Assembly (NCBI GenBank): GCA_964016885.1
Contig: CAXHJY010001302.1
Span: 1-27,190, forward strand
From: Eledone cirrhosa
Lineage: Eukaryota
Length of the DNA: 27,190 nucleotides
Direction: 5' to 3'
Shown here: piece after piece, positions 16,721 to 16,854 of the stretch
Numbering within the stretch: the stretch's first letter is position 1
Layout of the letters: every line of letters begins with the position of its first letter
Translations under genes and position numbers: made by a program
Notes under the pieces: model-generated
The model's database searches: none
What the model saw: only the letters and a program-made list of their open reading frames with translations
What the model was told of the DNA's origin: nothing

Positions 16721-16854
16721 CATCCACTGATGATTTATAAGTGCCCACCTACATATATTCATACGGATTATATGTAGGCTTCTACATAACCTGGACATTA
16801 TTTTCCCAATTTGTAGAAAACTTATAATGAAACGATCGTTTAGAATGAGGGATG
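16721..16854 (+). ncRNA. Hammerhead motif with branched helix II
   Basis: CTGATGA 16727-16733; TTATAAG 16735-16741 pairs with CTTATAA 16821-16827; GAAA 16829-16832; palindrome ACGATCGT. Two internal hairpins; helix I is weak or interrupted. Confidence 0.65.

What the first reader, a model, noticed from the sequence alone, without database searches (positions are those of the whole stretch)
16721..16854. Hammerhead with helix II expanded into a four-way junction
Seen: intact CTGATGA and GAAA boxes 95 nt apart, closed by a U-U pair and a perfect 7-bp helix (TTATAAG:CTTATAA). Its loop holds two further hairpins, CCTACATATA (16748-16757):TATATGTAGG (16769-16778) and TTCTACA (16780-16786):TGTAGAA (16812-16818). 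Helix III is the ACGATCGT palindrome. Helix I is interrupted, with CATCC 16721-16725 able to pair with GGATG 16850-16854. Inference: an atypical HHR architecture that descriptors with short loop limits would miss. The extra domain might provide tertiary contacts or a protein-binding site. I cannot tell whether it has been described.
Basis: partly seen in the sequence, partly recalled or inferred. Interest (0 to 1): 0.75.

Follow-up and report, generated by a model that had tools for sequence, protein, structure and literature searches.

The report
Branched hammerhead in Penelope-driven retrozyme
A hammerhead (self-cutting RNA) motif with an unusually large two-hairpin side arm sits in a damaged copy of an abundant non-coding jumping repeat; the arm is kept by compensating base changes, the RNA likely cuts itself, and the repeat likely borrows the enzymes of Penelope-like retrotransposons.

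Summary
The four-way junction is real. It is not a one-copy insert: 543 exact core-plus-stem matches, 0 controls. Across 8 subfamilies 9-29% apart, 8 of 11 doubly variable predicted pairs stay paired, against 50 of 2,039 background pairs.

The host is a 700-990-nt non-coding, (TA)n-inserted tandem retroelement, i.e. a non-LTR retrozyme.

Added here:
(i) a predicted pseudoknot, 16718-16721:16743-16746, recurring in four other families;
(ii) the uncleavable G17 never expanded (3 vs 543);
(iii) 24 of 25 short copies begin at or just after the predicted cut;
(iv) the fixed 3' end resembles that of a Hydra-like Penelope element.

Cleavage and expression are untested. Core, U-U pair, palindromic stem III, stem I-II pseudoknots and the host class are published; I found no paper on a branched 77-nt loop II. 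The scan noted this architecture earlier elsewhere in this genome. New variant of a known kind.

The parts
16616..17028 (+). 5'-truncated copy (413 nt, about 0.57 unit) of a 722-nt non-coding tandem retroelement (subfamily A)
16529..16614 (.). (TA)n tract at the 5' junction
17026..17077 (.). (TA)n tract at the fixed 3' junction
16682..16712 (+). upstream hairpin, predicted in all 8 subfamily majorities (limits approximate; weakened in this copy)
16718..16721 (+). 5' strand of predicted pseudoknot (GGGC)
16723..16726 (+). stem I, 5' strand
16727..16733 (+). core CUGAUGA (positions 3-9)
16734..16742 (+). stem II 5' strand: U10.1 (U-U, G-C or A-U by subfamily) plus 8 bp
16743..16746 (+). junction strand, 3' strand of predicted pseudoknot (GCCC)
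16748..16778 (+). first inserted hairpin (P2a); 5 of 10 pairs change on both sides
16780..16818 (+). second inserted hairpin (P2b, 7 bp) with inner helix 16792-16795:16804-16808
16820..16828 (+). stem II 3' strand, ending in U11.1
16829..16832 (+). core GAAA (12-15.1)
16832..16839 (+). palindromic stem III (2 bp + GAUC as monomer; 8-bp duplex, -10 kcal/mol, as dimer)
16840..16840 (+). H17 (U here; U, A or C by subfamily); predicted cut 16840/16841
16841..16844 (+). stem I 3' strand; A16842 (family G) makes a C-A mismatch in this copy
16849..16871 (+). downstream hairpin, predicted in all 8 subfamily majorities
16993..17028 (+). 3'-terminal 36 nt, about 81% like the 3' end of a Hydra-like Penelope element; likely reverse-transcription start signal

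Best explanation
This is a type I hammerhead motif with a conserved two-hairpin branch in loop II, carried by a non-coding tandem retroelement; it likely cuts that element's RNA, which is likely copied into (TA)n sites by a Hydra-like Penelope reverse transcriptase/endonuclease. Shown: the fold, its conservation, the element's anatomy. Inferred steps: (1) read-through transcripts of tandem copies are cut, slowly and likely as dimers through the palindromic stem III, after 16840; (2) monomers may be closed to circles; (3) the borrowed protein nicks (TA)n and starts reverse transcription internally about 190 nt 3' of the cut, at the end motif shared with a Hydra-like element; (4) it stops at a cut end or reads on through uncut or re-joined sites, giving 0.2 to 1.9-unit and longer copies. 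The predicted pseudoknot likely braces stems I and II in place of the usual loop-loop contact (about 50%), which would free loop II to carry extra hairpins; their job, likely protein docking or folding, is untested. The window copy is likely inactive.
For: Structure. Catalytic signature: 0 of 11 core positions vary among 8 subfamily majorities while N7, H17 and 10.1:11.1 vary within allowed states; G17 in 3 matches vs 543. Element: units of 699-991 nt in tandem, no coding frame seen in the units, 3' end 180-199 nt after the cut in 58 of 62 copies, 22 of 62 longer than a unit, TA-rich 3' flank in 51 of 62, an inverted pair (L061). Tandem halves share 14 locus-private alleles in subfamily C. 24 of 25 short TA-flanked copies start 0-18 nt after the cut, 1 before it; P = 2e-5 if uniform. 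End motif: score 34 vs null -1.5 +/- 7, 2 of 5,309 as high; the motif follows a Hydra-like RT-endonuclease in 14 of 25 copies. Pseudoknot: invariant in the subfamily majorities, matched complement in 4 more families, one compensatory change in one of them.
Against: No cleavage assay and no RNA data. Core, stem I, stem II and stem III conservation is partly built in, because selected on them (P2a, P2b and the pseudoknot were not selected). 3 of 11 doubly variable pairs, all in P2a, fail in at least one subfamily, and 'further pair types' was not above shuffles (379 of 500). The pseudoknot shows no compensatory change in this family; its families were picked by eye, two may be related, and an automatic pass found it in only 3 of 15 other long-armed hammerheads. 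A 9-bp stem II beside a 4-bp stem I with 0-1 nt linkers looks strained for the active fold (my rough estimate from recalled geometry). Only 2 of the 25 5' ends fall on the cut itself; pausing and TA microhomology could make the step. The candidate partner has no CUGANGA before its end motif and none of 25 copies had a full frame; subfamily G matches the end motif poorly (180 of 5,309).
Confidence: 0.65

Rival explanations
1. Same ribozyme and host, but the GGGC:GCCC pairing is an off-switch: it traps the core in an alternative fold so that monomers or circles do not cut, as proposed for the cereal yellow dwarf satellite hammerhead.
For: In pseudoknot-free folding this helix replaces stems I and II in the window copy and in circular monomers of two subfamilies. 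Stem lengths look strained for a brace (inference). Copies that start at one cut run through a second intact site (L301, L015), implying partial cleavage. sCYDV-RPV has a 4-bp helix I and a long interrupted helix II (PMC1636495, table passage); the inhibitory pseudoknot there is recalled, its title seen.
Against: Nested folding must choose one helix set, so it cannot decide. Pseudoknots at this position activate type II hammerheads (PMC3088659 sections 6-7). Other families here have better-matched stem lengths.
Confidence: 0.3
2. The hammerhead fold is kept mainly as a binding or folding scaffold for the Penelope protein; uncut RNA is the template and cleavage is rare or dispensable.
For: In Poseidon_Ac, ribozyme mutants still insert in vitro, cleavage needs the protein, and no RNA-seq reads end at the cut (PMC11167929). 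Most copies here read through the site. Reverse-transcriptase pausing before the fold could explain the 5' ends.
Against: H17 changes among U, A and C but never G; stem III stays self-complementary through several variants. Both fit selection for catalysis.
Confidence: 0.2
3. The two hairpins are a neutral insertion inherited by descent, with no function.
For: All subfamilies share one ancestor; P2b is nearly invariant, so it gives little covariation.
Against: 8 of 11 doubly variable pairs kept vs 2.5% background, and 3 of 4 one-sided changes keep the pair; the P2a loop varies at 9 of 11 positions, P2b stem at 2 of 14.
Confidence: 0.05

Closest known systems
Metazoan non-LTR retrozymes (Cervera and de la Pena 2020, PMC7229834, parts 2-3 of 6 read; Li, Clavereau and Pollet 2026, bioRxiv 10.64898/2026.07.22.740005, abstract, most of Results and Discussion read)
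   Same: Non-coding tandem units with one type I hammerhead each, GC under 50%, highly self-paired, proposed to be moved by Penelope-like elements. Axolotl HHR_Amex2 has the same U-U base of stem II and 2-bp stem III. Li et al. report consensus lengths up to 972 bp.
   Different: Loop II is 77 nt with two hairpins instead of the short loop; no canonical loop 1-loop 2 motif; copies have a fixed 3' end, ragged 5' ends and (TA)n targets; circular RNA not shown here.
Hammerheads of Hydra-clade Penelope-like elements (Craig et al. 2021, PMC8557442; section 11, passages, supplement part 2 of 59 with File S2)
   Same: U-U at 10.1:11.1, 4-bp stem I, palindromic stem III, about 100-200 nt from the 3' end, (TA)n insertion, partial tandems and inverted copies.
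   Different: Listed Hydra loops II are 3-10 nt; the longest in File S2 is 34 nt (a plant PLE-X, flagged as deviating). This element encodes no protein.
Pseudoknotted type II (and I/III) hammerheads (Perreault et al. 2011, PMC3088659; sections 6-7 and passages)
   Same: A helix joins the strand 5' of stem I's 2.x arm to the strand leaving stem II's 10.x arm; U10.1-U11.1 occurs naturally.
   Different: There stem II is short and open; here it is 9 bp and closed by a branched domain; activity untested.
sCYDV-RPV (+) hammerhead (table passage in PMC1636495; primary papers not held, details recalled)
   Same: 4-bp helix I, long helix II, stem I-II interaction controlling cleavage, double-hammerhead cleavage (title seen).
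   Different: Its helix II is an unbranched run of 5, 4 and 4 bp; type III; plant satellite RNA.
Poseidon_Ac mechanism (Frangieh et al. 2024, PMC11167929; parts 1-2 of 4 read)
   Same: Internal start of reverse transcription downstream of the hammerhead, AT-rich targets.
   Different: Autonomous element with a minimal hammerhead; the mechanism is transferred here by inference.

Membership tests
Type I hammerhead ribozyme | Core CUGANGA, GAAA, UH in canonical order | tested here: met
   intact in 52 of 62 BLAST-selected copies
Type I hammerhead ribozyme | Stems I, II, III around the core, ends in stem I | tested here: met
   family level; stem I is mismatched in the window copy
Type I hammerhead ribozyme | Stem I-stem II tertiary contact | tested here: inconclusive
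   predicted pseudoknot conserved but not covarying in this family
Type I hammerhead ribozyme | Match to an Rfam hammerhead model | tested here: not met
   expected from the long insert, not a defining biochemical feature
Type I hammerhead ribozyme | Site-specific self-cleavage | not testable with these tools
   indirect only:
Non-LTR retrozyme | Non-coding head-to-tail units, one type I hammerhead per unit | tested here: met
Non-LTR retrozyme | Highly self-paired unit, GC under 50% | tested here: met
   circular fold z -4.5 and -4.7 on the sense strand, GC 0.34
Non-LTR retrozyme | Expressed as circular RNA | not testable with these tools
   no RNA holder listed
Non-LTR retrozyme | Target-site duplications | not tested
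   flanks are (TA)n, where duplications cannot be read
Non-autonomous Penelope-like element (Hydra-driven) | Fixed 3' end, 5' truncation, partial tandems, inverted copies, (TA)n target | tested here: met
Non-autonomous Penelope-like element (Hydra-driven) | Sequence shared with the end of an autonomous element | tested here: inconclusive
   36 terminal nt only, strong in 3 of 4 subfamilies tested; no shared hammerhead
Non-autonomous Penelope-like element (Hydra-driven) | 30-40-nt optional tail (second start site) | tested here: not met
   one end cluster, at 180-199 nt, in 58 of 62 copies; none further 3'
Autonomous Penelope-like element | RT plus GIY-YIG frame inside the unit | tested here: not met
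   units close on themselves at 699-991 nt without a coding frame

The most novel reading that the evidence does not exclude
A distinct structural subclass of type I hammerhead in which a type II-style pseudoknot replaces the loop-loop contact and turns loop II into a free slot that has acquired one or two hairpins in several unrelated retrozyme families; the branch docks the Hydra-type protein, which switches cleavage on, and genomic 5' ends record that cleavage in vivo.
Probability: 0.25. Interest if true: 0.75.

Novelty: new variant of a known kind. Interest (0 to 1): 0.5.

Why it matters
Short-loop descriptors and Rfam miss these motifs, so hammerhead and retrozyme counts in invertebrates are likely too low. 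The family gives a testable pair for two open questions named in the papers read: whether Penelope-type hammerheads cut in vivo, and which autonomous element moves animal retrozymes. A natural hammerhead that tolerates a 77-nt branched loop II is also a ready scaffold for RNA engineering.

Tried and rejected
Rfam, gathering and E-value modes: nothing. Search for more distant relatives sharing GGGC plus stem I but another stem II: 21 matches, either family copies with a deletion of the stem II 5' strand or unrelated sequence. Direct descent from a protein-coding element: a Hydra-like family with about 750-aa frames shares no sequence with the unit beyond co-inserted copies. Three other long-armed families showed no attached coding frame. 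Incidental copies gave only 11 usable 5' ends, too few. A matched control for 5'-end density elsewhere in the unit was not run. No tRNA in the window. Papers not held: Arkhipova 2017, Lunse 2017, Hammann 2012, Miller and Silver 1991, Song and Miller 2004. Supplements of Cervera 2014/2020, Perreault 2011 and Li 2026 were not seen and could show long loop II variants.

Full report
Observation. Rfam has no match. The exception is helix I, below.

Context. The window is a 27-kb contig of a 3.0-Gb genome rich in TA microsatellite; octopus-like is my inference, not tested. The motif lies in a dispersed repeat: 2,726 first-look candidates, 40 scored, 93-96% identical. The window copy spans 16616-17028 between two (TA)n tracts. 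Other loci run further 5' and close on themselves as a 722-nt head-to-tail unit. Related subfamilies have units of 699, 701, 767 and about 990 nt. No coding frame was seen in the units; frames in the flanks belong to neighbouring retroelements.

Conservation. Two patterns gave 543 and 423 exact, partly overlapping matches with 0 controls. I aligned 143 distinct copies; 121 fall in 8 subfamilies of three or more, 9-29% apart and 3-7% within. Among subfamily majorities 0 of 11 core positions vary, against 11 of 17 upstream and 45 of 131 downstream; this is partly built in by the patterns. P2a, P2b and the pseudoknot were never selected on. Of 11 predicted pairs with both sides variable, 8 stay paired in all subfamilies, against 50 of 2,039 background pairs (Fisher 4e-11, optimistic because subfamilies are related); the three failures are in P2a. 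On 20 hand-picked copies 89.8% of cells pair, 12 of 42 pairs change on both sides, and slid controls give 30-43%; one measure, further pair types, did not beat shuffles. RNAalifold recovers the four-way junction and extends stem II by 16742:16820, leaving a 77-nt loop II (16743-16819).

Helix I. The family stem is four contiguous pairs, 16723-16726:16841-16844, with a U-A to C-G switch at the outer pair. The window copy has A16842 (2 of 143), costing about 6 kcal/mol in the hammerhead fold against a close family copy. I saw no second copy of the family near it. It is likely dead.

Signs of selection for catalysis. Position 17 is U, A or C by subfamily; the same pattern with G17 gives 3 matches against 543. 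N7 varies; 10.1:11.1 is U-U, G-C or A-U. U-U there is a known natural variant (PMC3088659 passage; axolotl HHR_Amex2; many Hydra hammerheads). Stem III stays self-complementary through several variants, the dimer design of Penelope-type hammerheads (PMC4209133 parts 1-2 of 4).

Pseudoknot. GGGC 16718-16721 complements GCCC 16743-16746, the strand leaving stem II; both are invariant among subfamily majorities. This is the position of the activating pseudoknot of type II hammerheads. Four other families, picked by eye, have a 4-6 bp complement at the same place (local null 0-3.7% each), with one G-C to A-U change in one family; two of them may be related. An automatic pass found four or more pairs in 3 of 15 other long-armed hammerheads, so it is not general. 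Whether it braces or blocks the active fold is open.

How copies are made. Among 62 of 147 mapped copies that were at least 88% like a reference unit, 58 end 180-199 nt after the cut, 5' ends are scattered, and 22 exceed one unit. Tandem halves differ by 2.0% within and 3.0% between loci and share 14 locus-private alleles in subfamily C, which fits one monomer read more than once but also fits tandem sources. The first 100 of 795 redundant matches to a TA-tract-plus-anchor pattern collapse to 25 loci; all are true 5' truncations, 24 start 0-18 nt after the cut and 1 before it (P 2e-5 if uniform, 13 vs 0 in the nearest positions). Two sit on the cut as read by eye. Pausing and microhomology are not excluded. 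The last 36 nt are about 81% like the end of another abundant family that follows an RT and an endonuclease with the Hydra CxCX5C linker in 14 of 25 copies; the end-anchored score is about 5 sd above null in three subfamilies and weak in a fourth. An internal start downstream of the hammerhead is what Poseidon_Ac does in vitro.

Comparison. The host fits non-LTR retrozymes, now proposed to be non-autonomous Penelope derivatives (review passages). Hydra-clade hammerheads match in core details and position but have 3-10 nt loops. Ten literature searches gave no natural hammerhead with a branched loop II of this size; mostly listings were seen, with passages of PMC6765202, PMC10085705, PMC3185516, PMC6155905 and PMC1636495. 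Several key papers and supplements were unavailable, so absence from print is not proven. Earlier notes of this scan describe the same architecture elsewhere in this genome.

Verdict. A real, selected, branched variant of a known ribozyme in a known class of element; this copy is damaged; activity untested. New variant of a known kind, interest 0.5.

Noticed in passing
window 39-80 (+), 10342 (+), 11743 (+), 17899 (-), 25589 (+): Further short hammerhead-like motifs with palindromic or hairpin stem III; CTGANGA is over-represented in the window (20 vs 4.7 expected).
   Followed up: partly
window 24007 (-) and 24724 (+): Inverted pair of a hammerhead with a 36-nt unbranched stem II region.
   Followed up: partly
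window 12160-12292: Fold-back copy of the 3' end of the Hydra-like element that shares the end motif.
   Followed up: partly
window 17561-17671: Perfect 54-bp inverted repeat with a 3-nt loop, part of a multi-copy repeat.
   Followed up: no
window 26147 and 26926 (+): Two copies of a CTGATGA-bearing repeat with no clear GAAA partner nearby.
   Followed up: no
L189-L218: A 540-570-nt non-coding tandem family with 7,480 exact hammerhead matches, C-A at the base of stem II, one inserted hairpin, predicted pseudoknot and two clusters of 3' ends.
   Followed up: partly
L169-L188 and L249-L273: Two more families with long loop II (84 and 53 nt between the core boxes) and a predicted pseudoknot.
   Followed up: partly
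L148, L149, L157, L160, L168, L126:500-656: Recurrent short deletions of the stem II 5' strand in several subfamilies, apparently between short direct repeats.
   Followed up: no
L219-L248: Very abundant Hydra-like Penelope family with frames of about 750 aa; no CUGANGA-GAAA motif found between the stop and the next TA tract in 30 of 30 loci.
   Followed up: partly
L121:1480-2470: The 991-nt unit holds an internal duplication of about 270 nt at 79% identity.
   Followed up: no
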